From the IMG/VR virus record IMGVR_UViG_3300043409_002109, positions 86,206 to 150,205 of that record: a stretch of 64,000 nucleotides of DNA, one strand, 5' to 3'. This DNA comes from a virus. Below the pieces are notes generated by a model. That model had not been told where the DNA came from. It searched no databases and saw nothing but the letters and a program-made list of their open reading frames with translations. This document shows positions 8,346 to 30,563 of this stretch, in pieces (position 1 is the first letter of the stretch; each line of letters begins with the position of its first letter). The translations under genes were made by a program, and so were the position numbers.

Positions 8346-9301
8346 TGCCAGGGCCTATGTCTTTGAGTACGCTGCTTCGTAGTCAAATATCAACAGTATC
8401 TAATACTGTTGATACGTTAGCTGTTGATGCTGCTGAGATTATTGTAAATGACCCCTATGCTTGGGGGACCGGAGCAGATGGTAATATCTCATTAGATGGT
8501 ATAACTACTGTTACTATTGGTGGGGTAAGTCATGCACCGTCAGGAAGCACTTATACTTTGACTCGGCCTTTGAACGCTAGAGTGCTTACTATTAGCAATG
8601 GTGTAGCTTTAAATTCTTCAGGCTTCTTAGTCCATTGTTGGGAATTAGCAGGTACCGGTACTATAAAAGATCGAGGAGCTAATGCCTCTGGCGGTACAGC
8701 GGGGATGGGTCTTACTGCGAGTGGGACGACTCAAAGAACTTCTGGTAACGGTGGGGCTGGGGTATCTTCACCTGGCGCTGGTCAAGCGGGTTCAGCAATC
8801 ACTAGCGCCCTTGGTGGTGGAGGAATGTCTGGAGGCACCGCAGGTGCTAACCCTGGTGGTGGAGGGGGCTCTCCAACTGTGCCTACTGCAGCTGTAGGGT
8901 TTCCTTCTTCTTCGATCTCTACTTGGGCGTTTCTAAAAGGTGTCAATGGTACTGCTTACGCAGGTGGTTCCGGTGGTGGTTCAGGGGCTATCGCTGTTGG
9001 CGCCTCTGGAACTTCTGGTGGCGGTGGTGGCGGTGGTGGGGTGATAGGTGTATTCGCACGGAAATCAGTAAGTACCATTACGATTAACGTCGGTGGGGGT
9101 AACGGGGGGAATGGGACTTCCAGCAGTGGTCAGGTCGGTGGTGGCGGTGGTGGTGGCGGTGGGTATGTTCTTTGCGTATACAAGGATGGCGCAGCTCCCA
9201 CCATTACTGTGGGTGGCGGTACCGCTGGCTCTGCTGCTGGAGGCGCGAGCGCTGCTTCGAACGGTTCTTCTGGCAGCAGCACTGTAATACAGATGTCTTA
9301 G
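8339..9301 (+). CDS. glycine-rich tail/virion protein
   Basis: Long GGxGG runs typical of phage Gly-rich tail-associated proteins; probable start at ATG 8345. Confidence 0.7.
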   Translation: MVMPGPMSLSTLLRSQISTVSNTVDTLAVDAAEIIVNDPYAWGTGADGNISLDGITTVTIGGVSHAPSGSTYTLTRPLNARVLTISNGVALNSSGFLVHCWELAGTGTIKDRGANASGGTAGMGLTASGTTQRTSGNGGAGVSSPGAGQAGSAITSALGGGGMSGGTAGANPGGGGGSPTVPTAAVGFPSSSISTWAFLKGVNGTAYAGGSGGGSGAIAVGASGTSGGGGGGGGVIGVFARKSVSTITINVGGGNGGNGTSSSGQVGGGGGGGGGYVLCVYKDGAAPTITVGGGTAGSAAGGASAASNGSSGSSTVIQMS

Positions 9302-9330
9302 GCTGGCAGCCTATCCCCCTTATTCAGTCG

Positions 9331-10341
9331 TTATGAGGCTGCTTTAAGCATTAGTCCGTCTGCTACTGCTGATGTATCCGTGCTTATGCAATGGTATAGA
9401 TCCGTAGCGCCGCTACGGATTGTCTTACCGCTCTGGAAGGACCCCGAGGGATAGATTCCGCGCAACATTCCCATCCGGGAACCGTTAGGCGATACAGATC
9501 CGGAGTTGCGGTGGAAGGCCATAAGGTCCCCTACGAACATCCCGGCTGGAGTCGTGGTAGCTGCCACTGCAGTGCCTGCCTGCATCGTGTGCTTCCGGCC
9601 ACCCGTGTATAGGGTGGAGGTCCCCGGTTGCCACACCATCCCGTGACAGGCTCCAGCTGTGGTGCCGTGGCCAAAAGGGGCTTGTGTAGCATTCGAATTG
9701 AGCCACGCATTAGTCATGATCCCGCTTCCACCCGTAGCCCACATTCCGTAGAGTCGATCGTCTGTCTCCGCGTCAAGCCCCCCGCTTGCAGCGTTCGTCT
9801 GATGAGGCTCCACAATCGCCCCAGAGGATAACCACGCTTGTTGGGTCACGGTTGTCCCGATAAGCTGGAGGAAGATCACCTCCTCCGAGATATAGGCTCG
9901 TACCTTGGCAGTGGTACTATTCCAAGTGGTGCCCGCAGCTCTCCAGTATCCGGAGTTGGTACCGCTCGTGAAGGGTTGAGCGTTTGCCCAGTCGTTCCAC
10001 GCCCCGCGATTCTTAACGATTCCCATCAGCAAGTTAGAAGCCGTGAAGGTATCCGGGGATGCCATAGTAGGAGCAGGCGCCCCACTGTCCCCAGCCCAAA
10101 TAAGACCGGGTGATAGACCCATGCCCGTTCCTCCTGGAGGAGTAGCATAAACAGCTTTAGTAACAGCTACGACCTGTCGATTCCAGGACCAGGTATGAGT
10201 GGCTGCAAGTGCCGTTGCCCGGTAATCGTTGGCCGCTGAACAGGCGGTGTATATAGCGTCCAGGAGACCTTGAATGTCTGAGGAAGCGGGAGAGACATCG
10301 GCCATTCTATAGAATGTAAGAGATGATAGAGGGAGTGCCAT
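9331..10341 (-). CDS. putative virion structural / tail-associated protein
   Basis: Ala/Gly/Thr/Ser-rich, Lys-poor, coupled to the fibre gene, visibly higher GC. Confidence 0.55.
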   Translation of the reverse strand: MALPLSSLTFYRMADVSPASSDIQGLLDAIYTACSAANDYRATALAATHTWSWNRQVVAVTKAVYATPPGGTGMGLSPGLIWAGDSGAPAPTMASPDTFTASNLLMGIVKNRGAWNDWANAQPFTSGTNSGYWRAAGTTWNSTTAKVRAYISEEVIFLQLIGTTVTQQAWLSSGAIVEPHQTNAASGGLDAETDDRLYGMWATGGSGIMTNAWLNSNATQAPFGHGTTAGACHGMVWQPGTSTLYTGGRKHTMQAGTAVAATTTPAGMFVGDLMAFHRNSGSVSPNGSRMGMLRGIYPSGSFQSGKTIRSGATDLYHCISTDTSAVADGLMLKAAS

Positions 10342-12005
10342 TAGACGAGAGCCCCTGTGGTAGCGGCCGATCCGTTAAATCCGGTGGCCAGTTCTGGTAT
10401 TAGGACGGCTGCGATTGCCATCATGAGGAATGTCCCGACGATTGTGCTTCCAACTCGTTTAAGCACCTGACCGTCCGAGACGGCACCCATTGTAAGGCTA
10501 GTAGGGCCTGAAGTTTCTCGGATTCCTCGCACATCAGGATTGGGATAGGTACCGCCCAATTGCCCACCGGCTGCGCCGGTAGGTGTCCGGCTGTCACTCA
10601 GACGTGAATCATCACCAGCAGCAACCGTTCCTGCAGTAGTTCCAACATTCAATATCGCCGCCCCACCAAGTCCAAGTGTAGTGCGGGCCGTTGATGCGTC
10701 AGCATCATCAATCAGTGAAAGTCCGTATGCTGTAGGGGTAGTACCATTAACCCGAGTCACCGTAGCAGCTGGCCAATCACCTGTAATATCACCTGTCGAT
10801 GTTTTGGATAAGGCTGCGATAGTCCCTAGTGTGGGAAGCCCAGAAAGATCTGAATAGGCTCCGGTTGCTGCGACTGTAGCGAGTCCAAGATTCGTACGAG
10901 CCCCTGCCGCTGTACTGCTTCCAGTGCCACCATCTGCTACTGCTACGTCGGTGCCGCCAGGCCGATAGCCGGCATCGGCGTAGGTCTTGGTCGCCTTCTG
11001 CGTGGCTAGCTTAGCGTCTGAGTCGGCAGCGAGAGTACCGTCCGTGTCTACAGTGACAGATACTCCACCGATCTTGGCTACCCCGGGATTTGGATAAGTT
11101 CCAGATAGGTCTCCAGCAGCAGCTCCTGTTGGTGCACGCGAATCAGTAAAGCGTGAATCATCGCCGGCCGCCACAGTGCCTACAGTGGTTCCAACATTTA
11201 GCACGGCTGCTCCTCCAAGCCCAAGATTGGTCCGTGCAGTGGATGCACTTGCGAGGTCGGAGAGGTTGGAGGCTTTCTGCGCTGCGCCTGTAATCCGGGA
11301 GTCATCTCCTGCTGCGACCGTACCAGCGGTTGTCCCTACGTTAAGGACGGAAGCCCCGCCAAGACCGAGATTCGTTCTTGCGTCAGCAGCGCTACTAGCC
11401 CCAGTACCGCCATCTGCTATGGCTACATCTGTTGAGCCTGGGGCGTAGTAGTCTGTACCGGCGGCGGCGGCCGATAGAATGCCAGCCGCAGCCTTAACAA
11501 CCGTAGCTGTAAGACTGGACCTCTTAATAAGTTTGCCAGTTGTCCCATCAAAGATGGAAACTTCAGAATCGACAGAAGAGGAGGGGCCGACAACATCTCC
11601 ACTTCCGCCCCCGCCCCCACCTGTGGCGTTTAAGGTTGTACCACTCATAGAGAGATTAGTCCCAAGAGTTATTTCTTGTGCTACTCCGCTACCTCCACCC
11701 GCCCCTCTTCCGAGAAGTCTCTCTGCAGTAAGAGAAGTTATGGCCCCTATAGAGTGAGTGTGAGAAGCTGGAGTCTGAGGATCTGCTAAAACCCCAGATA
11801 AGCCAGTTACATCAATTTCATCGGCTCCGCCGTTTTGATGTGACGTTTTATGAGCTGCAGCTGTTGCAGCAGTAGAGATGGCAGGGATGCCATCTGCGTC
11901 AAAATAAAGATAACCCTCTTCGTCAGACCCTATCTTTTTATATTCTATTAGAGAATTCTTATAGGGAGGCGAGGTCCGTGCAGTGCTAACTTTTTGGCGG
12001 CGCAT
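10341..12005 (-). CDS. tail fibre-like repeat protein
   Basis: ARTNLGLGGA.(V/I)LNVGTT.GTVAAGDDSR x3, PG.TDVA.ADGGTG x2, GAA.G.L.GTYPNP x2, GGGSGDVVGP. Confidence 0.78.
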   Translation of the reverse strand: MRRQKVSTARTSPPYKNSLIEYKKIGSDEEGYLYFDADGIPAISTAATAAAHKTSHQNGGADEIDVTGLSGVLADPQTPASHTHSIGAITSLTAERLLGRGAGGGSGVAQEITLGTNLSMSGTTLNATGGGGGGSGDVVGPSSSVDSEVSIFDGTTGKLIKRSSLTATVVKAAAGILSAAAAGTDYYAPGSTDVAIADGGTGASSAADARTNLGLGGASVLNVGTTAGTVAAGDDSRITGAAQKASNLSDLASASTARTNLGLGGAAVLNVGTTVGTVAAGDDSRFTDSRAPTGAAAGDLSGTYPNPGVAKIGGVSVTVDTDGTLAADSDAKLATQKATKTYADAGYRPGGTDVAVADGGTGSSTAAGARTNLGLATVAATGAYSDLSGLPTLGTIAALSKTSTGDITGDWPAATVTRVNGTTPTAYGLSLIDDADASTARTTLGLGGAAILNVGTTAGTVAAGDDSRLSDSRTPTGAAGGQLGGTYPNPDVRGIRETSGPTSLTMGAVSDGQVLKRVGSTIVGTFLMMAIAAVLIPELATGFNGSAATTGALV

Positions 12006-12335
12006 TTAGGACTCGTACTCTATCTGAACTGTAGCTTGAGTGGCGACAGAGCCTTTAACGGCAACGTAAAAGGTACCACGCTTGGGATCTGAGCCCTTAG
12101 CTTCTGCGTAAATATTTTCTTCGCTGTCTAAGGGTGATGTAGTTAGGGCATATTCCAAAGGAATATCTAGATCTGATGAGGCCGAAGACGTTTCTCTGAA
12201 AGATACAGCTACGTTTCCAGGATCGTCTAAGATCGCACGTACTCGTTTTATTTGTATTTTTTTAGGTAGAATTATTTCCTCTACTGTCCAAGTAGCACCA
12301 TCTACAGATACTGTAAAGCGTTTACGTGCAATCAT
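12006..12335 (-). CDS. hypothetical protein (small, beta-rich, probably virion)
   Basis: Abuts the fibre gene; AGGA RBS. Confidence 0.6.
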   Translation of the reverse strand: MIARKRFTVSVDGATWTVEEIILPKKIQIKRVRAILDDPGNVAVSFRETSSASSDLDIPLEYALTTSPLDSEENIYAEAKGSDPKRGTFYVAVKGSVATQATVQIEYES

Positions 12336-12342
12336 CTTGTTC

Positions 12343-13602
12343 CTAACTTTGAAGCATTTCTTCTGTAAAGATTAGTGGTGTCGCAGCGCGACCTATATTT
12401 AGAAATCTACTAAATAACAAATTGTATTTTATAGGATCTACATGCGTTATGCCAAGTGCATAACATACGAGACTTCCTGCGGCTGAGCCTCGGCCTGGTC
12501 CACTTACTACATCTAATTCATCTTTAGCGTAATTAATAAACCTACTTACAATCAGGATATAATCTGAGAAACCCATTTTTTTAATTGCTTTTAATTCTAG
12601 TGTTAGTCTTTCTCGATATTCTAGAGGAGGTTTTTCTCCAAATCTTTCTGTAAGTTTTTGCTTAGAAAGTTTGGCTAAATATTCCCAGCTAGTACATTCT
12701 AAAGGCAATGGATATTTGGGGTAGTGGTTGGCTGTATCTTTGAAGTAGCTCTTATCATCTATCATATTGGCAATATGAATTGTATTTTGTAAAGCCTCCA
12801 TTGGAATTCCCTGCTCTTGGGCGCGCAACATCATCCACTCTGGAGAACCAACATGTACATCTATTTCTCCAAAAGTAAATCTCTTAGGATTATACATCGT
12901 ATCATTAGTTTGCATACACAATGCCTGTTCATGCAAGGACTTATGTTCTGGGTGAGTATAGTGCGCGTCGTTAGTAAGAATCAAGGGAAGATTTTTTTTA
13001 GCAGCAATTTCCATAAGACCTTTATTCAAAGCCTGCTGCTCCTCATCCCTATGGAGCTGTAGCTCAATAAAGAATCGATCCTTGAAGATATCGCAGTGAC
13101 CATCGATGAGGCGCTCCGCTTCATCTCTACGGTTAAGGAGAATGAGTTTACTGAATGCGCTTCCGAGACAGGCTGTAGTTGCGATGATGCCTTCGTTGTG
13201 CTCCTTGAGAAGAGCGTCATCGGCCCTTGGCTTGTAGAACATCCCTGAGGTATAGGCGTTGGAGCTGATGGCCATAAGGTTTTTCCAACCCACAGCATTT
13301 TGAGCTAATAGAACTAAATGATAGTACTTCTCCCCCATGGCATCTACTTCGCGGATAGAACGATCTTGGACGGTATAGTAAGCCTCTAAACCTAGGATAG
13401 GTTTTATACCAGTCTTCTTGCATTCTTTATAGAATTTGTATGAGCCTGCGAGGTTACCATGATCAGTGATGGCACAGCTTCTCATTCCCATTTCTTTAAT
13501 CTGAGAAGGGAGTTGGTGTATCCGATTAATCCCGTCTAATGTGGAGGTCTCGAAATGGCAATGAAGATGACAGAAAGAATCTGTATTATCTGAAGTAGTC
13601 AT
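12343..13602 (-). CDS. dnaE: DNA polymerase III alpha, N-terminal fragment (PHP domain plus start of palm)
   Basis: HLHCH..S.LDG, AITDHGN, GLEAY, HLVLLA, TACLG, TNDAHY, GPGRGSAAGSLVCYALGIT, FSRFLN; stop 14 aa after IGR. Confidence 0.93.
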   Translation of the reverse strand: MTTSDNTDSFCHLHCHFETSTLDGINRIHQLPSQIKEMGMRSCAITDHGNLAGSYKFYKECKKTGIKPILGLEAYYTVQDRSIREVDAMGEKYYHLVLLAQNAVGWKNLMAISSNAYTSGMFYKPRADDALLKEHNEGIIATTACLGSAFSKLILLNRRDEAERLIDGHCDIFKDRFFIELQLHRDEEQQALNKGLMEIAAKKNLPLILTNDAHYTHPEHKSLHEQALCMQTNDTMYNPKRFTFGEIDVHVGSPEWMMLRAQEQGIPMEALQNTIHIANMIDDKSYFKDTANHYPKYPLPLECTSWEYLAKLSKQKLTERFGEKPPLEYRERLTLELKAIKKMGFSDYILIVSRFINYAKDELDVVSGPGRGSAAGSLVCYALGITHVDPIKYNLLFSRFLNIGRAATPLIFTEEMLQS

Positions 13603-22478: not shown

Positions 22479-22537
22479 TCTTTAATCCTTCGTTATTTAA
22501 ATGATGACGCCCAAAGGCGTCATCATCTTGTTCTATT

Positions 22538-22798
22538 TTAGAACTTGGTACAGTAATGCAGTGCGCCTTTGACCACGCCTGTGGCGCTTACGAGGTCTCC
22601 TGCGTAAACCTGCTCACTATCCCAACGATTCTTATCTACGGTCTGGCCGTTGACAGCAATCTCGTTGTTAATGGAGCAGTCGGCATTATAAACTTCACGC
22701 GCACGGTCAAGCACACGACGAAGGGTTACTACGCTTTCACCCGGGAAATCTAGCTGCTTCTGGCCGTTGCCAGGAAGACGAAGAAATTCTACTTTCAT
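22538..22798 (-). CDS. ubiquitin-like beta-grasp protein (ThiS/MoaD type) with C-terminal extension
   Basis: MKVEFL...TLRRVL...IAVNGQTV...W...V.AGDLV...VKG-ALHYCTKF; directly downstream of the E1 gene; start ATG 22798. Confidence 0.8.
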   Translation of the reverse strand: MKVEFLRLPGNGQKQLDFPGESVVTLRRVLDRAREVYNADCSINNEIAVNGQTVDKNRWDSEQVYAGDLVSATGVVKGALHYCTKF

Positions 22799-22800
22799 TT

Positions 22801-23550
22801 TTAATTCTCTGATTGTTCTGTTGTTGAAGCACGACACAAAGATCGTACAGTAAGATTGGGAGCAAAGTGGAACATAGTCCTACGACGGTCTAGCATGTTC
22901 CAAGGTTCACCAGTAGAGTCTTGAATCATTCGATCACACATCTGATGGACCAGGAAAGATACTGTGTTGAATACTAGGGTACTACATATCTTACGATTGC
23001 ATGGACCTTCTGGTGTTTCAGCATCATTCCCTAAGCTGTTAAGCCAAACGTCTACTTGCTCACTATCTAGATTATCTAGAAGATTTACTTGGCCGAAGTC
23101 AAATCCAAGCCTTGTCTCGAAAACTCCAAGAATCTGAGGATTCATCCGGAAGACTTCAGCGACTGCTCGTCTAGAGTCAAAAGAATCTGTAGCCAGAACT
23201 AAAGGTCCGCCTTCTGCAATAGTCGATTCTTTCGAAAAGAATTCTGCATGAGTAGTTACATCTATTTCTGGATTGAATCTGCGGAGTACATGTGCAAGTG
23301 CATCTACCTTTTGCAGGCCTATGTGTTCAACATCATAGGCCTGATTGGGAAGATTGTGTGGCTCGACCTGATCACGATCCCAAAGATCGAAACGAGTAAA
23401 GCCCATTCGAGCTGCTAAGAGAGCAGCATTGCTGCCAACAGCCCCACAGCCTACAACAATAACTCTGCATTCAGCTAAAGCAGGATTAAACCAAGAAGAA
23501 TGTCTTTGAAAACTAACCTTCTTCTCAAATTCAACGGGCGCTTGCGTCAT
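22801..23550 (-). CDS. ThiF/MoeB/E1-like adenylyltransferase
   Basis: FQRH, GCGAVGS, WDRDQVEPHNLPNQ, KVDAL, ATDS, ETRLG, candidate catalytic Cys in GPCN. Confidence 0.92.
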   Translation of the reverse strand: MTQAPVEFEKKVSFQRHSSWFNPALAECRVIVVGCGAVGSNAALLAARMGFTRFDLWDRDQVEPHNLPNQAYDVEHIGLQKVDALAHVLRRFNPEIDVTTHAEFFSKESTIAEGGPLVLATDSFDSRRAVAEVFRMNPQILGVFETRLGFDFGQVNLLDNLDSEQVDVWLNSLGNDAETPEGPCNRKICSTLVFNTVSFLVHQMCDRMIQDSTGEPWNMLDRRRTMFHFAPNLTVRSLCRASTTEQSEN

Positions 23551-24847
23551 TTTCTTTCCTGGACTTTTTATTCTTATTCTTATTCTTATTCTCGTAAGCG
23601 TTAACGTTCTTGAGGAAAAGCTTCATCCATTCATTGTCTAGCTCTTTAGCAATTCCTGGCATTCTCTCAGAAAGTTTATAACCAAAAGCAATTTCAGCAG
23701 CAGCAACAAAGAGATCTGCACCAAAGGTGTCTTGCCCTATAGCAAGCTGTCTAAAATCTTCTCTAGCATCTTTATAAGGAGCCATAGAATCAGCGTTCAC
23801 CTTAAAAGCATAGAGAGTTGGAACATCATTCTTGTCTTCTTCGAATAGAAGAGCACTCATAATTTTCCAACAGTACTTAGCTTCTAACGAGTCTGGATCC
23901 CCAAAATACTGATCCATTTCTTTCATGAACCTCGCAGTAGGAACTTCACTAGCTTGAAGTGTCTTAGCGTTTGTAATAGCTTCTGCACATTCAGAAAGAG
24001 TTGGGTAACTTGGTGCGACCCAAGAAAGAATAAATCCATCTTTAATCGAAGTGTTCTGGCCAGTCTGTTTCGTCGTAGAGTCCTGGGACTTTCCACCAGT
24101 GTGGGTTTGCCCCTGCACAGGAAAATTTTTAGTGCCATTACTATTATTGCTACCTCCTGTATAAGCAGTAGAGGTATGAACTCTTGTCTTAATTCTTTCT
24201 TTCAGGAGGGTGTCAATTTTCGCAAAGTCGAATCCATCGGAGATATGAAAGGTGGCATTTTGTACCTCGGCCCCCAAAACCGGATCGTAAAGACGACAAA
24301 AGTATTCATCTTTCTGATTAAGGATTACCATCATAACAGGCTGAGAAGGATTATCTTCTGTGATTTTACGAGCAATCCAATCTTTCCACTGCTCATTATC
24401 AGTACCGCTTGGATTACAAGCCATCTGGACGTGAGAGTGACACCAGACTGCCATACGAGAACAGTCTAGGTTGAATGCTTCTAGAGCTTCATCTCTGGGG
24501 GGGATTCTATTGCCCTCTTCATCCACTGGAGGAACCAAAGTCCCTTCAGTGTTACGAACCATCAGGCCATGACGCTCGCGAAGCTCGAATGCAAGCTTCA
24601 AAAGCATGTTCCCGTCAGTCTCGACTGTTTGTCCAGTAACAGTTTGTTCTGGAATTAGAATATCAGAAATGAAATAGTGAATCATCTTATTCTTATGATC
24701 GACTTCTCTATCTATCATATGAAACCACTGACATTCTTGTGCGTTACACTTAGCAGTTAGATACCTTGCCTGCTCTAGTGCAAATCGATCCCAGGTTATC
24801 TGGTATCGATACCGTGTACTAAGCAGTTCCGGTGTTGTTGCTTTCAT
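23531..24847 (-). CDS. JAB/MPN+ metalloisopeptidase (deubiquitinase-like) with long C-terminal extension
   Basis: Upstream Glu (ECQW), IPEQTV, complete HxH-x7-SxxD (HSHVQMACNPSGTD). Confidence 0.85.
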   Translation of the reverse strand: MKATTPELLSTRYRYQITWDRFALEQARYLTAKCNAQECQWFHMIDREVDHKNKMIHYFISDILIPEQTVTGQTVETDGNMLLKLAFELRERHGLMVRNTEGTLVPPVDEEGNRIPPRDEALEAFNLDCSRMAVWCHSHVQMACNPSGTDNEQWKDWIARKITEDNPSQPVMMVILNQKDEYFCRLYDPVLGAEVQNATFHISDGFDFAKIDTLLKERIKTRVHTSTAYTGGSNNSNGTKNFPVQGQTHTGGKSQDSTTKQTGQNTSIKDGFILSWVAPSYPTLSECAEAITNAKTLQASEVPTARFMKEMDQYFGDPDSLEAKYCWKIMSALLFEEDKNDVPTLYAFKVNADSMAPYKDAREDFRQLAIGQDTFGADLFVAAAEIAFGYKLSERMPGIAKELDNEWMKLFLKNVNAYENKNKNKNKKSRKENDASAR

Positions 24848-27308
24848 TATTTTCCTGTTGTTCGTTTAGAACTTTTTCAATTTTTGCAGTTTGATTCACA
24901 AGAATACCTTCGTATTTTGTATAGCCTTTTCGAAGAATACTACCCATTCTTTTCTCTACTTCTGCATTTGCATTTTCTGGAGTTGAAACTACAGTTATAG
25001 TTTTTCCACCTGAAGAAGGAATGATCCAATTAAAGCCTTGCTTTATCATTGATCCGAATCGAATGACTACATCAGGCAAACCATCAGTATATTTTATCTG
25101 ATAGTAAAGATGATTGGTATCATTTGTACTATTAACATAATTGAAAGTTTTTTCTTCAAAAGAATAACTATGAATTAATGTTGGGATTTCAGATACTTCT
25201 GGAAAGTAAGTGTATTCTTTTCCCCAATGATCGGCTGGATCTGCATTACTTACCCAGCTATTCAATGTTAAGAGAATCAAGTTCAAGTCTTCATTCTGAA
25301 AGCATTGCCATAATGCAGTAGTAGCTTCTCCTGCACAAACTCTAGCTGAATGAGTAAACATAGAACTAATACTTGAATAATCTATTGGATTAATTATTAA
25401 TGCAGCTGTATGTGGATGCAATTTAATTGTTCTTAATGCATTCTTATCAACATTTCTCTCTTCTGGACGAACGCCAAAGATTGTATATTTTTCCGCAGGA
25501 AATAATTCAATAGTTGGGCTATCTCCTGGAACAACCATAGAGACTTTGAAAAGGTATGGACCTCCGACTCTAGAGCCCCACTTAGTTTCCCACTCTGGGT
25601 CTCTTGCTCCTACTCTAATCTTATTAGGCCGAATTGTCCTAGCAATAACTTGATGAAGGAACCAGTTGCTGTTCAAAGAGCATTCTTTATTTTTAGAAAC
25701 ACTTTCAATTGCACCAGAGACTTTATTCTTATAAAGAACATCAAGAACTATCCAGTTCTGGCGTAACCAAATCTGTTGAATATTAGGTAAGGTTTCAATA
25801 CCCAATTCTTTAAGAATATCATCTTGTGAAACTGCAGATTTTAGAGCTAATTCATTCAGAATATCAAAATCTTTTTTAACTTGATCTAATTTTTTCTGCT
25901 GAGCATCTAAAGTATTATTCCAATTTTTAATTTCTTGTTCTTTAGCTAAGAGTATTCTTTTTAGCTCCTTTAATTGATCTACGTTAGCCTGTCTAATCGC
26001 AAGTATTTGATTGCGTTTAGACTGATGCTGCTTGTATATAGATTCAAATTCAAGAACATTTTTCTCTTTATTCTGGGCAGCATTTAAATTTCTTTTAAAA
26101 TTTCTACCAGATTCTGTTCTTACTAGAAGTTTAGAAAAATTCATATTTTGCCAAGATTCACTTGGTAATATTTTTTTTTCTAAAAGAATATTCTCATATT
26201 TTGACTGTATTTTTAGAGTGGAATTAATTTTTTCTAAGGTAGTATACCAAGATTTACCTAAGGTATTTATTTGATTAGGAAAAAATCTTTTAACTTCTTT
26301 ATATCTCTCAACCAAAATAGGATGATTTTCTAAAGATGTTCTTTGTCTAGCTAAATCTTTGACTAAGATATCTAGAGCCTCGGTTAAAATAAGATTTTCT
26401 TTCTTATCGAGGTCTGAATAAGAAGTATTAAAATGGATTAGCTGAGTTATAGAGACTTCTTCATAGGTCCCTGAAGAAGGATTTATTACTAAAACGTTTC
26501 TTCGTATTGGGATGAACATACCAGGCTGATAATTTCCTAACGCTATCTTCTCGTTTGAAAATTCAACTTCATTTTTAGAATTAGACTTTACAAGTAAGAC
26601 ATTAGTTCTATGTGACGGGCCACAATTGTTTATTAGTTCTTTGAGATATTCTTTAGGAAGTAAACTGATAGGTCCATCTTCGTCTACCCAGCCTTGATAT
26701 AACCCTATTTTTAACCTACGATTTTCAGCATTAAGATTTAAATTTTTATTATTAACTCTTTTTGTTGTCCAAGTATTAGGAAGTATGAAGCTCATATCTA
26801 TTTGAGGTTCAACTAGATCGGGATATATCTCTTTAATAGAAGGTGGAATAAGATTATATTCATCGAATACTAAAGGAGTCACATATATTGTATCAGGATA
26901 TGGCTGATAAGCAGATAGCTTTTGATCTGGATCCTTAGTATAAGATGAAATAGGATCATCTTCTTCTGACTGTTGTACTATCCAAAAGATACTTGAAGAA
27001 CTTGAATTCTGCTTTAATTTTATATTCGACAACGAATATCTTGATCTTAAATATTCGAGATTATCTACTTTTGGGCTGCCACTAGGCTTTAGTAATATAT
27101 CTTCACTTAAAGATATAAATTTATTTTCACTTAGATTAAGTGTATATCTGGCAAGACTTTTAATTATTGGATCAAAGTCTTCATTAAAAGGATGTCCAGA
27201 TCTTGTAGCGTTTGCCTGCAGTAAAGAAGGGAAAGCTAAAACAAATCGAGAAGAATGGAGCGGGCGGGATCCAAGACTAGGAAGCGCATGACGAGAAGTA
27301 GAATACAT
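24819..27308 (-). CDS. large multidomain protein: coiled coil, putative prokaryotic E2-like domain, C-terminal WGR-like domain
   Basis: GGPY...HPHT...RVCAGE...L..W....DP.D.WGK.Y..FP (E2-like, Cys codon 25337-25335); YYQI...VVIRFGS...A..E..K.....RKGY (WGR-like); position in the JAB-E1-Ubl operon. Confidence 0.62.
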   Translation of the reverse strand: MYSTSRHALPSLGSRPLHSSRFVLAFPSLLQANATRSGHPFNEDFDPIIKSLARYTLNLSENKFISLSEDILLKPSGSPKVDNLEYLRSRYSLSNIKLKQNSSSSSIFWIVQQSEEDDPISSYTKDPDQKLSAYQPYPDTIYVTPLVFDEYNLIPPSIKEIYPDLVEPQIDMSFILPNTWTTKRVNNKNLNLNAENRRLKIGLYQGWVDEDGPISLLPKEYLKELINNCGPSHRTNVLLVKSNSKNEVEFSNEKIALGNYQPGMFIPIRRNVLVINPSSGTYEEVSITQLIHFNTSYSDLDKKENLILTEALDILVKDLARQRTSLENHPILVERYKEVKRFFPNQINTLGKSWYTTLEKINSTLKIQSKYENILLEKKILPSESWQNMNFSKLLVRTESGRNFKRNLNAAQNKEKNVLEFESIYKQHQSKRNQILAIRQANVDQLKELKRILLAKEQEIKNWNNTLDAQQKKLDQVKKDFDILNELALKSAVSQDDILKELGIETLPNIQQIWLRQNWIVLDVLYKNKVSGAIESVSKNKECSLNSNWFLHQVIARTIRPNKIRVGARDPEWETKWGSRVGGPYLFKVSMVVPGDSPTIELFPAEKYTIFGVRPEERNVDKNALRTIKLHPHTAALIINPIDYSSISSMFTHSARVCAGEATTALWQCFQNEDLNLILLTLNSWVSNADPADHWGKEYTYFPEVSEIPTLIHSYSFEEKTFNYVNSTNDTNHLYYQIKYTDGLPDVVIRFGSMIKQGFNWIIPSSGGKTITVVSTPENANAEVEKRMGSILRKGYTKYEGILVNQTAKIEKVLNEQQENNESNNTGTA

Positions 27309-27823
27309 TATATTTCAAATCCTTTTAATATTATTTGTTCATCTATATTTTCGTCGATAGCATTAACTAAGAATTTGAATTGATTTTCACTGATCTTTAC
27401 GTCAGGTAGAATCTCATAATTTTTTAGTAATAGCTGGATATTAGGTTCAAGTTCGCCTTGAGCTTTATATTTTAGTATCAATAGTGTTGGGTGAGGCCGA
27501 AGAGAGCTTAACTCTATTAAGAATTTCTTTCTTAGAGTTTCACGATGCGAAGGAGTTATATTATTTTGAAATAATATTTTAATTCTTTGATAAAAATTCT
27601 TAGTTAATCCAGCCATAGCTTTTTTTCTTTGAGTTTCGTTCCACGTCTTTGTGGCTCTTGTGCTAGGATAATTTTTAGGTATAGAGAGAGAAAACTTCTC
27701 CCTCTTTCCATATTTAAATTCTGGTAAAGTTTTATCTGGTATTAAATAAAAATTCTTGTAATCGTCATCCGTATTTTCAGTCGGTGTTATTGGAACAAAC
27801 TGAATCAATTGATTAAGACGCAT
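27308..27823 (-). CDS. hypothetical basic protein
   Basis: Translationally coupled to the 829-aa gene. Confidence 0.6.
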   Translation of the reverse strand: MRLNQLIQFVPITPTENTDDDYKNFYLIPDKTLPEFKYGKREKFSLSIPKNYPSTRATKTWNETQRKKAMAGLTKNFYQRIKILFQNNITPSHRETLRKKFLIELSSLRPHPTLLILKYKAQGELEPNIQLLLKNYEILPDVKISENQFKFLVNAIDENIDEQIILKGFEI

Positions 27824-28448
27824 CTTTTTCCACGGCTATAAGGGCGATGACATACAATCCAACATTGGGCGCTATGTCATCAATAAATATTTGAGGATGT
27901 TTAATCATAGGTAGTAGCTCTTTGGGTAAAACTAGACATCCTATTTCAGTTAGGATTCTTTTAGTATCTAAGAGAATATCTATGATTTTTTCAATCTCTT
28001 CATTTTTAGATTGAAGAGTTATTTCTAACTTGTAACGAATCTTATGATATTCGATCCAGAGTTTATTAAAAGTAGATACAAGATTATATTCGTAATCAGA
28101 GAGTAATCGAAGTACTTCTGATTGAATATGAATCTTTAGCGAGTTAAGATTAGGGATTCGATTTGTATTACGTAAACGTACTTGTACTAATCCATTAATA
28201 TAATAATTTGCTTCTATTTCAATTCCGCAACTTTTTAAGTTTATTATCTCACTAGGAGATAATCGATTATATTCATTTCTTTCTAGGAATGTTGCAGGAG
28301 ATCCAGCGAATGCTAAACTTAAGCATTCTTGTGGATCCAACCTCAAAGAAATGTTGTTACTCTGGCCCTTTGTTATCAGAAGATTCGTATTTCTCACTAT
28401 CCAAGGGATAGAGTTCATTTTGAATCTCCATGATAAAAGATGGAGCAT
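27813..28448 (-). CDS. hypothetical protein
   Basis: Operon packing. Confidence 0.6.
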   Translation of the reverse strand: MLHLLSWRFKMNSIPWIVRNTNLLITKGQSNNISLRLDPQECLSLAFAGSPATFLERNEYNRLSPSEIINLKSCGIEIEANYYINGLVQVRLRNTNRIPNLNSLKIHIQSEVLRLLSDYEYNLVSTFNKLWIEYHKIRYKLEITLQSKNEEIEKIIDILLDTKRILTEIGCLVLPKELLPMIKHPQIFIDDIAPNVGLYVIALIAVEKDAS

Positions 28449-28826: not shown

Positions 28827-30563
28827 TTATCTACAGAAACCTATAGAAGGTTTATGTAGAATATTTTGTTTGAAAACTGTATCAATAAATTCTTTATTGA
28901 TAGTTTGATTTGTTTTTTCATAAGCGTAGATGTTTGTAGCAGCTACTCTTAAGAGTCTTCGGACGCGCTGTTCGATCTGTCGAACTTGTTTTATTTTGGC
29001 AAGCTCAGAGAAAGCTTCGTCGGTCCATTCAATTGGTAATGTTTTAATATTGTAGTCAAGAACTATCTTGGGCAGAAGATAATCATTTAAGATTTTATGA
29101 CGTTCTTCATATTCATATTCTCTAAATCGAATGAACTCTAATCTGTCTTTAAGAGCTTCAGGTATTCTATCTTCATAGTTTACTGTAGCAACGAATAGAA
29201 TCTTGCTAAGATCTACCTCTAACTCTATATAGCGATCGATAAATTCTTTATTTTGAGAGTTATCTAATGCGCTTAAAAGAGCTGATGCGGCTGAACCTCT
29301 ATGAGTATCAAGTTTATCTAGTTCATCCAAGAGTATACAAGGATTCATTGATCCAGCATTGCAAAGAGCATTGATAATTCTTCCGCATTTACTACTGATG
29401 TATGTTCTTCTGTGACCTACTATATCGGCTTCATCACCGATACCTCCTAAGCTGACGGTCTGGAAGGACCGTCCAGAAGCTTCTGCTAAGGTCCTAGCTA
29501 TACTGGATTTACCTGTTCCTGGAGGTCCAGATAAGCAGATAATAGCTCCTGAACTATTACCTTTAATCTTTTCTATGCACATATGTTCAATCAGATAATC
29601 TTTTACATCATCTAGACCATAGTGGCTTCTGTTAAGATCTTCTCTTAATGCTTTTAGAGAGAAATCTCTTTCTGAACTTTTGCCCCATGGGATTTTGAAT
29701 ACCCAGCTAAGATAATCTTTTAGCATAGATGCTTCGGTTGAATTTCCTGGCATCGAATCTAATCTACTTATTTCCTCAGAAATTTTTGGGCGATGCATCT
29801 CTGGGAAAGCTGTTATATCCAATCTTTCTTTATAAGAAAGATTCTTAGAAGAAGATGTATTACGCTCTTGTTTCTCTATCTTAGAATTAGTAGCAGGTGA
29901 TTTCTTTTTGTGTTTTCTTTCCATAACAAGATCACTAATTTGAGTAGTGGTCATAAGCCATCTTTCTAAATTAGATTCTTCTTGAAGATACTTAATTCTA
30001 GATTCTTTTTCAGAGAAAACATAATCTGCCATATAATCCATACGACGGAATAAGTTTACTTCTTCTGTTAAGAGATTACATAAAGTCTGTTCAAATATAT
30101 CAGAGTTTTTAGAGATGACTTTAGATAGAGCTTCAATATCTGCATAGATACCATGTTCATCATCTTCTAACTCTTCTATATAAAATTGAGTAGTACAATA
30201 GATTCTAGAGAGTCCATCAGTATCTATATCTAAAATAACATCTTCAGTAACGAATGCGCGTCCTTCAATTTTAATTGTATATAAAGACATCTCATCATTG
30301 ATATCTTCAGGCTCTGTTATAGAGCCTAATAATCCTATGTCATATACATTATCTAGATACTCTCCAAGATCTTCCATCATTAGAGATGTGTCTCTAGTTT
30401 TGGGTATAGCAAAGAGAATGCGACGTTTAATTTGATCTCTTCCTAAAGAAAATTCTACAGGAGAAAAATACTTTAGACGTTCATTCGAAATTAATAAGTG
30501 AATTACTTGTCCAGGGATAGGTATGTCATCATTTAATTCTAATACGTAAACGGGATAGTTCAT
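28827..30563 (-). CDS. lon: Lon-family N-domain plus AAA+ ATPase lacking the protease domain
   Basis: YL.W...IPWG, SHYGL..VK, GPPGTGKS, GHRRTYI, NP..LLDELDK, L.DRLE; ends KPSIGFCR with no Ser-Lys protease domain. Confidence 0.88.
   Translation of the reverse strand: MNYPVYVLELNDDIPIPGQVIHLLISNERLKYFSPVEFSLGRDQIKRRILFAIPKTRDTSLMMEDLGEYLDNVYDIGLLGSITEPEDINDEMSLYTIKIEGRAFVTEDVILDIDTDGLSRIYCTTQFYIEELEDDEHGIYADIEALSKVISKNSDIFEQTLCNLLTEEVNLFRRMDYMADYVFSEKESRIKYLQEESNLERWLMTTTQISDLVMERKHKKKSPATNSKIEKQERNTSSSKNLSYKERLDITAFPEMHRPKISEEISRLDSMPGNSTEASMLKDYLSWVFKIPWGKSSERDFSLKALREDLNRSHYGLDDVKDYLIEHMCIEKIKGNSSGAIICLSGPPGTGKSSIARTLAEASGRSFQTVSLGGIGDEADIVGHRRTYISSKCGRIINALCNAGSMNPCILLDELDKLDTHRGSAASALLSALDNSQNKEFIDRYIELEVDLSKILFVATVNYEDRIPEALKDRLEFIRFREYEYEERHKILNDYLLPKIVLDYNIKTLPIEWTDEAFSELAKIKQVRQIEQRVRRLLRVAATNIYAYEKTNQTINKEFIDTVFKQNILHKPSIGFCR

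What the first reader, a model, noticed from the sequence alone, without database searches (positions are those of the whole stretch)
22538..27308. Phage-encoded ubiquitin-like conjugation operon: E2-like/WGR fusion, JAB, E1, Ubl
Seen: four contiguous minus-strand genes, overlapping or 2 nt apart. They encode an 829-aa protein with an HPH...RVCAG...WGK segment, a JAB protein with an intact E...HxH-x7-SxxD site, a ThiF/E1 with a free Cys (GPCN) and no Zn CxxC pairs, and an 86-aa beta-grasp protein ending VKG-ALHYCTKF. No sulfur-transfer partners (ThiG, MoaE, rhodanese, cysteine synthase) occur in the window. Known: E1+E2+JAB+Ubl operons in bacteria (Bil/Bub types, CBASS Cap2/Cap3) conjugate proteins and act against phage. 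Inference: here the phage carries the whole cascade. JAB would trim the 8-aa tail to expose Gly, E1 would activate it, and the E2-like protein would attach it to host or phage targets, for counter-defence, host takeover or exclusion of rival phages.
Basis: partly seen in the sequence, partly recalled or inferred. Interest (0 to 1): 0.92.

Follow-up and report, generated by a model that had tools for sequence, protein, structure and literature searches.

The report
Phage-encoded ubiquitin-like protein-tagging operon
An uncultured 150-kb phage carries its own ubiquitin-style tagging kit (tag precursor, activating enzyme, trimming protease and a giant, previously unrecognised E2-like carrier fused to a DNA-sensing WGR domain); related phages even have polyubiquitin-like genes, although such kits have so far been studied only as bacterial anti-phage defences.

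Summary
Four translationally coupled minus-strand genes (22538-27308) encode:
- a ThiS-like Ubl precursor;
- a ThiF-type E1;
- a JAMM/MPN+ peptidase with every catalytic residue;
- an 829-aa protein.

The last protein's residues 508-711 fold confidently (pLDDT 92). All structural matches to that region are E2/UBC or RWD proteins, but they are weak (Z 4-5). A clear WGR domain follows (Z 9.8). No Pfam or PADLOC model sees the E2-like core. It defines a family of at least 235 representative proteins with the signature HPH-x13-35-CxGE-x31-DxWG.

The order E2-like, JAB, E1, Ubl recurs in 9 of 9 informative metagenomic loci and in 21 IMG/VR viral contigs. Every Ubl ends in VKG plus a variable tail of 1-24 residues. 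At least 8 relatives carry tandem poly-Ubl genes joined at GSVKG|N, so cleavage after Gly78 is strongly implied.

The whole phage genome has no sulfur-transfer partner.

Best reading (about 0.7): a phage-owned E1-to-E2 Ubl conjugation cascade. Its target and biological role are unknown.

This scan has flagged other, non-homologous phage Ubl cassettes on other DNA. I found no paper describing this one.

The parts
22538..22798 (-). Ubl precursor, 86 aa. It is a single ThiS/MoaD-like beta-grasp domain with a conserved C-terminal VVKG78, followed by an 8-residue tail (ALHYCTKF) that would be removed.
   Evidence: Pfam ThiS at 0.012, and a PDB ThiS (2lek) aligned over the AvNG...W...V.aGD motif. 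Relatives hit only beta-grasp families. VKG is conserved and the tails are 1-24 aa and variable. Poly-Ubl junctions read GSVKG|N.
22801..23550 (-). Minimal E1 (ThiF/MoeB-type adenylating enzyme), 249 aa. It has no rhodanese domain, no ubiquitin-fold domain and no Zn CxxC pairs.
   Evidence: Pfam ThiF at 8e-25. PADLOC CBASS E1-E2 models at 4e-18. The PDB profile search hits UBA5, MccB, SAE2, MoeB, Cap2 and ThiF. Invariant residues are GxGAxGS, D58, K81, D122, C184, H202 and C205. NLPNQ replaces the canonical NLxRQ.
23531..24847 (-). JAMM/MPN+ metallopeptidase, 438 aa. The catalytic domain covers about residues 1-215. A Ser/Thr/Gly/Asn-rich linker follows (about 225-270), and then a C-terminal domain of about 165 aa with unknown function.
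   Evidence: E38, H137, H139, S147 and D150 are invariant in 10 orthologues. Matches are weak: Prok-JAB 0.006, PADLOC JAB 5e-4, own-genome search 1.1e-4. The gene lies immediately upstream of E1 in nearly all of the 80 viral loci.
24819..27308 (-). E2-like carrier protein, 829 aa. The whole gene is given here and its domains are listed separately.
   Evidence: There are 235 relatives at E<=1e-3 among 1.84 billion representative proteins. No Pfam, PADLOC or PHROG family matches.
26169..27308 (-). N-terminal alpha/beta region of the E2-like protein (residues 1-380). The fold is not identified. It is a candidate target-recognition part.
   Evidence: The AF2 model m6c767938bf7d has pLDDT 84, with strands 214-293 above 90. 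The long helix swamped the fold searches.
25836..26114 (-). A single 93-residue helix (residues 399-491), probably a coiled-coil stalk or dimerisation element.
   Evidence: DSSP on the model gives helix 399-491 at pLDDT 90-97. It matches only coiled coils, at Z 6.5-6.9.
25176..25787 (-). UBC-like (E2-fold) core, residues 508-711. It carries HPH631-633, the invariant Cys658 (codon 25337-25335) and D693-x-W-G.
   Evidence: Model mad082af8c0b9 has pLDDT 92. Every VIA row spanning this region is an E2 or an RWD protein, for example 1yrv at Z 5.0 with 118 residues aligned at 4.5 A. The ESM Atlas search points to viral Prok-E2_D clusters at score 0.88. The signature occurs in 110 of 150 representatives with a fixed 31-residue spacing.
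24900..25166 (-). WGR domain (about residues 715-803), with RFGS in place of WGR. It is followed by a terminal helix.
   Evidence: VIA gives Z 9.8 against 2ra8 (rmsd 2.3, 71 aa) and Z 7.0-7.7 against the WGR domains of PARP1, PARP2 and PARP3, including DNA-bound forms. Pfam WGR matches 5 of 60 family members, with a best E-value of 8e-12.
27308..27823 (-). 171-aa protein of unknown function. Its stop overlaps the start of the E2-like gene. It is conserved in the 8 closest relatives.
   Evidence: No family match. It is unrelated to the Gad2-type gene that sits at this position in more distant relatives.
27813..28448 (-). 211-aa protein of unknown function, probably starting at the Met at 28418. 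It overlaps the 171-aa gene by 11 nt.
   Evidence: No family match.
22501..22526 (.). Perfect 11-bp palindromic hairpin 12 nt after the Ubl stop codon. It is the likely end of the operon.

Best explanation
This is a phage-owned ubiquitin-like protein-conjugation cascade.

Inferred sequence of steps:
1. The 86-aa Ubl is made as a precursor.
2. The JAMM peptidase cuts after Gly78 (VVKG|A) and exposes the glycine carboxylate.
3. The minimal ThiF-type E1 adenylates that glycine with ATP-Mg and probably takes it onto its invariant Cys184.
4. The Ubl then passes to Cys658 of the UBC-like domain in the 829-aa protein.
5. That protein transfers the Ubl to a lysine of a target without a separate E3. 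Its large N-terminal region, coiled-coil stalk and WGR (nucleic-acid-end-binding) domain would choose or gate the target.
6. The JAB could also remove the tag again.

What is shown: the gene set, the conserved catalytic residues, the folds, the conserved gene order, and the precursor or poly-Ubl nature of the tag.

What is inferred: every chemical step, E3-independence, and the idea that targets are DNA-associated. The last rests only on the WGR domain and on the operon's place among replication and recombination genes.
For: Components
- E1 matches ThiF at 8e-25, with invariant ATP/Mg residues and Cys184.
- The full JAMM site is invariant in 10 orthologues.
- The Ubl hits only beta-grasp families.
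- The E2-like core model has pLDDT 92. All 20 or so structural matches over residues 508-711 are E2 or RWD proteins. The nearest language-model clusters are viral Prok-E2_D clusters.
- An invariant Cys lies 13-35 residues after an HPN-like HPH in at least 110 of 150 family representatives.

Linkage
- The genes are translationally coupled and a hairpin closes the operon.
- The order E2-like, JAB, E1, Ubl is kept in 9 of 9 informative loci down to about 20% E2 identity.
- The same order is kept in 21 IMG/VR contigs and 3 contigs binned into MAGs.

Processing
- Every Ubl has at least one residue after VKG: the tail is A, NM, or up to 24 aa.
- At least 8 relatives encode 2-4 tandem Ubl units joined at GSVKG|N. 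Some are fused to another domain, as in polyubiquitin and ubiquitin-fusion genes.

Against sulfur transfer
- The whole genome has no rhodanese, PP-loop thiolase, ThiG, MoaE or cysteine desulfurase.
Against: - The E2 assignment rests on weak structural scores: Z 4.1-5.0 at rmsd about 4 A. The tool warns that Z below 8 can reflect only a common arrangement.
- Foldseek found no E2.
- No E2 HMM (Pfam Prok-E2_D against the genome, or Pfam on 60 members) and no PDB sequence profile hits the core.
- The core has more strands than a classical UBC domain and a variable insert between HPH and the Cys. I could not check that Cys658 superposes on the E2 catalytic Cys.
- The E1 lacks a ubiquitin-fold domain for E2 recruitment and has NLPNQ instead of NLxRQ.
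- JAB+E1+tailed-Ubl sets also occur in sulfur-carrier pathways (QbsCDE, CysO/Mec; from my own knowledge). Host enzymes could supply the sulfur.
- No target, conjugate or expression data exist.
Confidence: 0.7

Rival explanations
1. Conjugation is E2-independent, or the 829-aa protein is not a thioester carrier. In this reading E1, JAB and Ubl form a SAMP/UbaA- or TtuB-like two-enzyme system. The 829-aa protein would be a non-catalytic UEV/RWD-like adaptor, a scaffold, the main substrate, or a thiol enzyme of another kind that uses the HPH/Cys/Glu/Asp cluster (for example metal binding).
For: Structural matches are weak and include non-catalytic RWD domains (Knl1, KMN) alongside E2s. No E2 HMM or PDB profile hits the core. 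In the more distant JAB-E1 viral loci the E2-like hit is weak, absent or placed elsewhere, so JAB-E1 is the more constant core. The conserved H, H, C, E and D residues could equally form a metal site.
Against: The Cys is invariant across at least 150 representatives and follows an HPN-like HPH, as in E2s. The gene is strictly adjacent to and translationally coupled with JAB-E1-Ubl in 30 or more loci. The language-model neighbours are Prok-E2_D clusters.
Confidence: 0.2
2. The system is a sulfur carrier. The Ubl is trimmed by JAB, adenylated by E1 and converted to a thiocarboxylate. That thiocarboxylate would feed thiolation of a tRNA, nucleotide or DNA base, or a cofactor, as in QbsCDE, CysO/Mec or TtuB.
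For: The closest sequence family of the Ubl is ThiS. The E1 is a minimal MoeB/ThiF-type enzyme. Tailed carrier plus JAMM trimming is known from sulfur pathways (my own knowledge). The phage carries tRNAs and many nucleotide-metabolism genes.
Against: The complete genome has no rhodanese, PP-loop thiolase, ThiG, MoaE or cysteine desulfurase. The C-terminus is KG, not GG. Poly-Ubl and Ubl-fusion genes in relatives are a hallmark of protein modifiers and have no obvious use for a sulfur carrier. This reading leaves the constant E2-like partner with an invariant Cys unexplained.
Confidence: 0.06
3. The chemistry is the same but the purpose is to interfere with host Ubl-based immunity. The phage JAB would strip host Bil or CBASS (Cap2) conjugates, and the phage Ubl, E1 and E2 would act as decoys or competitors rather than tagging targets of their own.
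For: The E1 is most similar to CBASS Cap2 E1 models in PADLOC. Host Ubl conjugation systems target phage parts (bioRxiv 10.1101/2023.09.04.556158). In more distant relatives a Gad2-type anti-defence-like gene sits just upstream.
Against: A bare deconjugating peptidase would be enough for that purpose. Maintaining a precursor Ubl, poly-Ubl genes, an E1 and a giant E2-like protein across a wide phage lineage argues for productive conjugation. The cassette sits among replication genes.
Confidence: 0.1

Closest known systems
Bil systems (BilA Ubl, BilB E2, BilC JAB, BilD E1; operon class 6d of Iyer et al. 2006, PMC1779556; Hor et al. bioRxiv 10.1101/2023.09.04.556158; Chambers et al. PMC10557695)
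   Same: Both are a four-part operon of Ubl, ThiF-type E1, E2-fold protein with a catalytic Cys, and JAMM peptidase. The Ubl's reactive end is a conserved Gly. A few BilA homologues also have 2-9-aa overhangs after the Gly.
   Different: - It is phage-encoded, not a host defence island.
- The Ubl is a single ThiS-like beta-grasp that always carries a tail or comes as a poly-Ubl. BilA has two ubiquitin-like domains and usually ends at Gly.
- The E2-like protein is 829 aa, with an N-terminal region, a stalk and a WGR domain, and it belongs to a family no Pfam or PADLOC model detects.
- The E1 has only 249 aa.
- No sequence-level membership in Bil was found for the E2 or the Ubl.
Type II CBASS Cap2 (E2-E1 fusion) and Cap3 (JAB) (PMC10097602)
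   Same: The E1 adenylation domain is most similar to Cap2 E1 models (PADLOC 4e-18; PDB 7tsx and 7to3 hit). A JAB partner and an E2-fold partner are present.
   Different: - E1 and E2 are separate genes.
- A dedicated Ubl exists, whereas in CBASS the CD-NTase C-terminus is the substrate.
- The window has no CD-NTase or effector gene.
- More distant relatives have a Gad2-type nucleotidyltransferase gene upstream, but I found no evidence that it is a substrate.
Prok-E2_D (PF14460) and the other prokaryotic E2 families of Burroughs, Iyer and Aravind
   Same: Both have a UBC-like fold with a conserved Cys and sit next to E1 and JAB genes. Viral clusters that partly carry PF14460 are the nearest language-model neighbours.
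   Different: The PF14460 HMM finds nothing in this genome, and no Prok-E2 model hits 60 family members. This family has its own signature, HPH-x13-35-CxGE-x31-DxWG, and extra strands.
Eukaryotic polyubiquitin and ubiquitin-fusion precursors, and prokaryotic multi-ubiquitin operons (class 6b/6c; triple Ubl noted in PMC1779556)
   Same: Relatives encode head-to-tail Ubl repeats, each ending at the conserved Gly, and Ubl arrays fused to an unrelated C-terminal domain. This implies release by an endopeptidase.
   Different: The window's own phage has a single Ubl with an 8-aa tail. The units are ThiS-like rather than ubiquitin-like in sequence. The junction is KG|N rather than GG|M.
Sulfur-carrier systems with JAMM trimming (QbsCDE, CysO/Mec+, TtuB; recalled from my own knowledge)
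   Same: Both have a ThiS-like carrier with a C-terminal extension, a JAMM peptidase and a MoeB/ThiF-type E1.
   Different: There is no rhodanese domain and no sulfurtransferase or thiolase anywhere in the genome. The C-terminus is KG, not GG. An E2-like partner is constant and relatives have poly-Ubl genes.
PARP1, PARP2 and PARP3 WGR domains and bacterial WGR proteins (PDB 2ra8)
   Same: The C-terminal domain has the WGR fold (Z 9.8; 7.0-7.7).
   Different: Here the domain is fused to an E2-like enzyme instead of an ADP-ribosyltransferase. The W-G-R triad reads R-F-G-S. DNA binding was not tested.

Membership tests
E1 / ThiF / MoeB superfamily (PF00899) | Rossmann-type adenylation domain that scores over the curated HMM threshold | tested here: met
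   ThiF scores 87.8 bits against a cut-off of 28.1, E 8e-25. The PDB profile search hits UBA5, MoeB, ThiF, SAE2 and Cap2.
E1 / ThiF / MoeB superfamily (PF00899) | Nucleotide-binding GxGxxG, the Mg-binding Asp, and the NLxRQ phosphate-binding motif | tested here: inconclusive
   GCGAVGS, D58, K81 and D122 are invariant. However, the motif reads NLPNQ (Asn in place of Arg) in all 7 diverse orthologues.
E1 / ThiF / MoeB superfamily (PF00899) | Catalytic Cys in the crossover loop that forms the Ubl thioester | not testable with these tools
   Cys184 (GPCN) is invariant. Its position in the chain resembles that of ThiF Cys184 (my own knowledge). The chemistry is untested.
JAMM/MPN+ peptidases (PF14464 Prok-JAB) | The metal-binding and catalytic motif E...HxH-x7-S-xx-D | tested here: met
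   E38, H137, H139, S147 and D150 are invariant in 10 orthologues.
JAMM/MPN+ peptidases (PF14464 Prok-JAB) | A score over the curated HMM threshold | tested here: not met
   The score is 16.9-19.1 bits against a cut-off of 25, and only profile positions 67-103 match. PADLOC JAB gives 5e-4. I file the protein as a divergent JAMM enzyme on the strength of the motif, not as a Prok-JAB family member.
UBC / E2 fold superfamily | The UBC alpha/beta fold | tested here: inconclusive
   Every VIA row covering residues 508-711 is an E2 or an RWD protein, with 106-123 residues aligned. However, Z is only 4.1-5.0 at rmsd 3.7-4.9 A. Foldseek finds no E2.
UBC / E2 fold superfamily | A catalytic Cys downstream of an HPN-type motif | tested here: met
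   HPH631-633 and Cys658 are nearly invariant in 150 representatives. The HPH-to-Cys gap is 13-35 residues, against about 8 in classical E2s. Structural equivalence of the Cys was not checked.
Pfam prokaryotic E2 families (PF14457-PF14462) and UQ_con | An HMM match | tested here: not met
   There was no hit at E<=10 on 60 family members, none for PF14460 on the genome, and none for a PDB sequence profile. I therefore treat it as a new family, not as a member of these.
Bil (BilABCD) | One operon that encodes Ubl, E1, E2 and JAB | tested here: met
Bil (BilABCD) | A BilA-type Ubl (two ubiquitin-like domains, C-terminal Gly) and a BilB-type E2 | tested here: not met
   The Ubl is a single 78-aa ThiS-like domain with a tail. 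PADLOC has no match for the Ubl or the E2. It works like Bil but is not a member.
Type II CBASS (Cap2/Cap3) | A Cap2 E2-E1 fusion together with a CD-NTase and an effector | tested here: not met
   E1 and the E2-like protein are separate genes. I found no CD-NTase among the genes I scanned next to the operon.
ThiS/MoaD-type sulfur carriers | A C-terminal Gly-Gly and a sulfur-transfer partner (rhodanese, ThiG, MoaE, PP-loop thiolase or desulfurase) | tested here: not met
   The C-terminus is Lys-Gly plus a tail. None of the five partner families is present in the complete genome. Host-supplied partners cannot be excluded.
WGR domain (PF05406) | The WGR fold | tested here: met
   Z 9.8 against 2ra8 (rmsd 2.3, 71 aa), and Z 7.0-7.7 against the WGR domains of PARP1, PARP2 and PARP3. 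The Pfam WGR HMM hits 5 of 60 relatives but not the window protein itself.

The most novel reading that the evidence does not exclude
The cassette could be the tagging arm of a phage-encoded, ubiquitin-proteasome-like degradation pathway.

In this reading the WGR-bearing E2-like enzyme marks proteins sitting at DNA ends or nicks, such as host nucleases, defence proteins or nucleoid proteins, or phage replication factors. The tagged proteins would then be unfolded by the protease-less Lon-type AAA+ gene, which lies 1.5 kb upstream in every relative examined. They would be degraded by the phage's own ClpP.

Poly-Ubl genes in relatives would supply the tag in bulk, as polyubiquitin genes do in eukaryotes.
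Probability: 0.12. Interest if true: 0.95.

Novelty: new variant of a known kind. Interest (0 to 1): 0.74.

Why it matters
E1/E2/JAB/Ubl cascades in prokaryotes have been characterised only as host anti-phage defences (Bil, CBASS Cap2/Cap3, Bub). This case differs in several ways.

- A whole lineage of large uncultured phages maintains its own cascade. Its carrier enzyme belongs to a family invisible to current catalogues (at least 235 representative sequences).
- The carrier is fused to a WGR domain, an architecture with no described precedent that I could find.
- The tags are made as tailed precursors or polyubiquitin-like arrays.

If the chemistry is confirmed, it would show that viruses of bacteria use ubiquitin-like tagging offensively or for their own replication. 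It would add a new E2 family, and an E2-WGR link to nucleic-acid sensing. It would also give a compact system of four to six genes that can be tested directly by co-expression.

It matters for annotation too. Public gene calls and Pfam miss the E2-like protein everywhere, and in a high-GC relative they also miss the E1 and the Ubl.

Tried and rejected
Searches that found nothing
- blastn of the operon, and tblastn of the 829-aa protein and of a distant member (P0148), against 50,697 phage records found no match. No cultured relative is known. tblastn with the E1 found only distant ThiF genes (<=35% identity over most of the protein) in crAss-like, Xanthomonas/Erwinia jumbo and other phages.
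- Pfam, PADLOC and PHROGs gave nothing for the 829-aa, 171-aa and 211-aa proteins.
- Pfam at E<=10 on 60 family members returned only coiled-coil noise and WGR.
- PDB sequence searches with the single protein, the 6-sequence profile and a 24-sequence core-only profile found no E2.
- The JAB profile against PDB found nothing.
- Foldseek against PDB with the C-terminal model returned only a weak WGR hit.

N-terminal half of the 829-aa protein
- The model was searched with Foldseek, VIA wide and VIA second look. The 93-residue helix filled every list, so residues 1-380 remain effectively untested.
- The ESM Atlas gave no usable hit for residues 1-395.

Other checks
- hhalign of the 211-aa and 171-aa families against the Gad2-type proteins that occupy the same position in distant relatives showed no relationship: probability 0.1%.
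- The search for related loci with the E2 alignments failed. A7 had no conserved stretch, and the A1 patterns gave no confirmed hit. The E1 alignment worked instead.
- The genome search 'relatives' is not available for virus records.
- Nine literature searches found no paper on a phage-encoded E1/E2/JAB/Ubl set or on an E2-WGR fusion. The PDB entry 9egb/9egc, the best E1 match, could not be traced to a paper.

Readings rejected
- I rejected the idea that the AAA+/PhoH/Whirly neighbourhood proves functional linkage. The whole region is syntenic across the lineage, so adjacency alone is weak evidence.

Full report
**1. The observation**

The window is the last 64 kb of a single 150,205-bp contig. 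The genome tool identifies it as an IMG/VR virus record with CheckV completeness 100%.

Genes in the window are nearly all on the minus strand. They include a phage DNA polymerase, a UvsX-like recombinase, ribonucleotide reductase, NAD-salvage genes, an RNA ligase, PhoH, a Whirly protein, SpoVG and four tRNAs.

The four ORFs of the finding are exactly where stated.
- Ubl: 22538-22798, 86 aa from the ATG. This start is supported by all orthologues, which begin MKV.
- E1: 22801-23550, 249 aa.
- JAB: 23531-24847, 438 aa.
- The 829-aa protein: 24819-27308.

The junctions are a 29-nt overlap, a 20-nt overlap and a 2-nt gap. Two further genes abut upstream: 171 aa at 27308-27823 and 211 aa at 27813-28448. 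A perfect 11-bp palindromic hairpin follows the Ubl stop at 22501-22526. The unit therefore looks like a six-gene operon that ends after the Ubl.

**2. The three recognisable parts**

*E1.* It matches Pfam ThiF at 8e-25 and PADLOC CBASS E1-E2 models at up to 4e-18. A profile of six orthologues hits UBA5, MccB, TcdA, SAE2, MoeB, PaaA, Cap2, ThiF and Uba4 in the PDB.

Across seven orthologues down to 34% identity, these residues are invariant: the nucleotide loop GxGAxGS, D58, K81, D122, Cys184 (GPCN), H202 and C205.

There is no CxxC pair, no rhodanese domain and no ubiquitin-fold domain. One oddity is that the canonical NLxRQ reads NLPNQ in all of them.

*JAB.* It matches only weakly by HMM: Prok-JAB 0.006, PADLOC JAB 5e-4, and 1.1e-4 in a search of the genome alone. 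Only the HxH...S..D part of the profile aligns.

Even so, E38, H137, H139, S147 and D150, the full JAMM site, are invariant in ten orthologues down to 21% identity. After about residue 215 come a Ser/Thr/Gly/Asn-rich linker and a poorly conserved C-terminal domain of about 165 aa with no match.

*Ubl.* It gives ThiS at 0.012, and a PDB ThiS aligns over the classic 'AvNG..V....W....V.aGD.V' stretch. Ten relatives give repeated sub-threshold hits only to beta-grasp modifier families: ThiS, SAMP2, lambda tail protein I and the UBX-like domain.

**3. The 829-aa protein**

Nothing in Pfam, PADLOC, PHROGs or PDB sequences matches it.

It has five full-length relatives at 33-48% identity. A profile of these found 235 proteins at E<=1e-3 among 1.84 billion representatives. 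Most share profile positions 555-712.

In 150 of them P561, G583-P584, G612, H631-P-H633, C658, G660, W685, D693, W695-G696 and F702-P703 are at least 90% conserved. The signature HPH-x13-35-CxGE-x31-DxWG, with a fixed 31-residue spacing, occurs in 110 of 150.

I folded residues 495-829 with a 94-sequence alignment and got pLDDT 92 and pTM 0.76.

An exhaustive structural comparison with 48,161 PDB representatives gave two results.
- Model residues 221-309 are a WGR domain: Z 9.8 against 2ra8 (rmsd 2.3 A, 71 aa) and Z 7.0-7.3 against PARP1 and PARP3.
- Every row that spans model residues 14-217 (protein 508-711) is an E2 (1yrv, Ube2K, UbcH10, Pex4p, UbcH7, E2S, E2E1, UbcH5, Cdc34, Ubc12, Ubc9, UBE2F) or an RWD domain (Knl1, KMN). 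These rows align 91-123 residues at Z 4.1-5.0.

The second-look run agreed. It gave Z 7.7 for the DNA-bound PARP2 WGR domain.

Those Z values are low. Taken alone they could reflect only a common arrangement, and Foldseek did not find E2s. On the other hand, twenty out of twenty rows falling in one fold superfamily is not what chance matches look like.

An independent method agrees. By protein-language-model features, the nearest named ESM Atlas clusters are three viral clusters that partly carry Pfam Prok-E2_D (score 0.88; lead-level evidence only).

The HPH followed by an invariant Cys recalls the HPN...Cys of E2s, though the gap is longer and variable. No E2 HMM and no PDB profile reaches the core. 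I therefore call it a new family with a UBC-like fold, not a member of any catalogued E2 family.

I also folded residues 1-500 (pLDDT 84). The model shows an alpha/beta region followed by a single 93-residue helix (399-491). That helix swamped all fold searches, so the N-terminal fold is still unknown.

**4. Conservation of the cassette**

All nine informative contigs that carry relatives of the 829-aa protein have the same gene order. This holds even for members at E about 1e-8, with roughly 20% identity.

The order is: Lon-type AAA+, one to three small genes, E2-like, JAB, ThiF, Ubl, then PhoH, Whirly and SpoVG. In the high-GC relative L008 the public gene calls miss ThiF and the Ubl, but both are there.

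A scan of IMG/VR with the E1 alignment found 144 relatives. I scanned the best 80 with HMMs built from my alignments.
- 21 loci (E1 identity 36-46%) have E2-like (E 2e-11 to 3e-69), JAB and E1 in that order. A Ubl is detected in 19 of them.
- Most of the remaining loci keep JAB directly upstream of E1. Their E2-like hits are weak, displaced or absent.

Among 185,579 species-representative genomes, only three contigs, all binned into MAGs, have the full cassette. The family is therefore essentially viral.

**5. Evidence for processing at Gly78**

In the six closest orthologues VVKGA is invariant and what follows is variable. More distant Ubls end VKGA, VKGA and VKGNM. Others have 10-24-residue tails. 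None ends at the Gly.

At least eight relatives encode tandem Ubl arrays: four units in L023, three each in L029 and L033, and two in several others. Every unit ends GSVKG and the next begins after 'N' plus 2-5 residues.

In L023 and L024 the array is fused to an unrelated domain of about 95 aa. In other relatives that domain is a separate neighbouring gene.

This is the layout of polyubiquitin and ubiquitin-fusion genes. It implies endoproteolytic release at KG| and a reactive C-terminal Gly. The JAB that always sits next to the E1 is the obvious enzyme, though that assignment is inferred.

**6. Mechanism and rivals**

The best-supported reading is a Ubl conjugation cascade.
1. JAB matures the Ubl.
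2. E1 adenylates Gly78 and carries it on Cys184.
3. The Ubl passes to Cys658 of the UBC-like domain.
4. The E2-like protein transfers it to targets. Its N-terminal region, stalk and WGR domain provide targeting or regulation.

I put this at about 0.7.

- The main rival (about 0.2) is that the 829-aa protein is not a thioester carrier but an adaptor, a substrate or another kind of thiol or metal protein. Conjugation, if any, would then depend on E1 alone, as in the archaeal SAMP system.
- A pure sulfur-carrier role (about 0.06) fits the ThiS-like sequence and the tail-plus-JAMM arrangement. Three things count against it: poly-Ubl genes, the constant E2-like partner, and the absence of rhodanese, PP-loop thiolase, ThiG, MoaE and cysteine desulfurase from the complete genome.
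- An anti-Bil or anti-CBASS decoy or deconjugation role is possible. It would not need the whole kit.

Nothing here identifies the target.

The WGR domain and the operon's place among replication and recombination genes suggest DNA-associated targets.

Together with the phage ClpP, which I confirmed at C1:74342-74839 and which lies 2.3 kb from the AAA+ gene in relative L002, it suggests the more speculative idea of a phage ubiquitin-proteasome-like pathway. I put that at about 0.12. Adjacency is weak evidence here because the whole region is syntenic.

**7. Comparison with what is known, and novelty**

The system works like Bil (class 6d of Iyer et al. 2006, PMC1779556; bioRxiv 10.1101/2023.09.04.556158; PMC10557695). 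Its E1 resembles Cap2 of type II CBASS (PMC10097602).

It fails the membership tests for both.
- It is phage-encoded.
- The Ubl is a single ThiS-like domain made as a tailed precursor or as poly-Ubl.
- E1 and E2 are separate genes.
- The window has no CD-NTase.
- The E2-like protein is a giant multidomain protein of an uncatalogued family that ends in a WGR domain.

Bub systems use Ser and oxyester chemistry (PMC11601596). Here both candidate catalytic residues are invariant Cys.

Nine full-text searches found no description of a phage-encoded E1/E2/JAB/Ubl set or of an E2-WGR fusion.

Earlier reports of this scan describe other phage-borne Ubl cassettes on other DNA. None shares sequence with this E2-like protein. 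The general theme has therefore been seen before within the scan, but not this family.

I rate it a new variant of a known kind, with interest 0.74.

Noticed in passing
L023:8905-10053; L029:5299-5940; L033:8242-8913; L024:8879-9658; L025:8279-8827; L027:7891-8424; L032:8269-8700; L097:8820-9899: Related phages carry polyubiquitin-like genes with 2-4 head-to-tail Ubl units. Each unit ends GSVKG and is followed by N plus a short linker. Several loci also have extra single Ubl paralogues.
   Followed up: partly
L010:12430-12726; L023:~9770-10053; L024:~9370-9658; also L026-L030, L033: A domain of about 95 aa (Y.HGH.PY.GTI ... GF.FYGWA) is fused to the C-terminus of the poly-Ubl in some relatives. 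In others it is encoded as a separate ORF beside the Ubl genes. It is absent from this window's genome and its function is unknown.
   Followed up: partly
L009:5757-6674; L010:7098-7820: In more distant relatives a Pfam Gad2-type (PF26128) nucleotidyltransferase gene lies between the Lon-type AAA+ gene and the E2-like gene. The window has two unrelated small genes at that position (hhalign probability 0.1%).
   Followed up: partly
window 5126-7282 and 12343-13602, with 8001-12000 between: The phage DNA polymerase (phrog_405) is encoded in two pieces. They are separated by an island of about 53% G+C, against about 40% elsewhere. The island carries a tail-fibre-like ORF (10341-12005) and two other ORFs.
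   Followed up: no
window 28827-30563; G000:C1:74342-74839; L002:3767-4369: A Lon-type AAA+ gene without a protease domain lies 1.5 kb upstream of the operon in every relative. The phage also has a ClpP gene, which in relative L002 sits only 2.3 kb from the AAA+ gene.
   Followed up: partly
L008:11912-12989: The public gene calls on this high-GC relative place ORFs on the wrong strand. They miss the ThiF gene (11948-12727) and the Ubl gene (12774-12986).
   Followed up: yes
window 22804-23550 (E1 residues 66-70): All E1 orthologues have NLPNQ where canonical E1, MoeB and ThiF enzymes have NLxRQ. The phosphate-binding Arg is replaced by Asn.
   Followed up: no
L052, L066-L071 (downstream of E1): In a more distant group of viral JAB-E1 loci, a weak E2-like hit (1e-6 to 1e-7) lies in a very large ORF (about 1,300 aa) downstream of E1 rather than upstream of JAB.
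   Followed up: no
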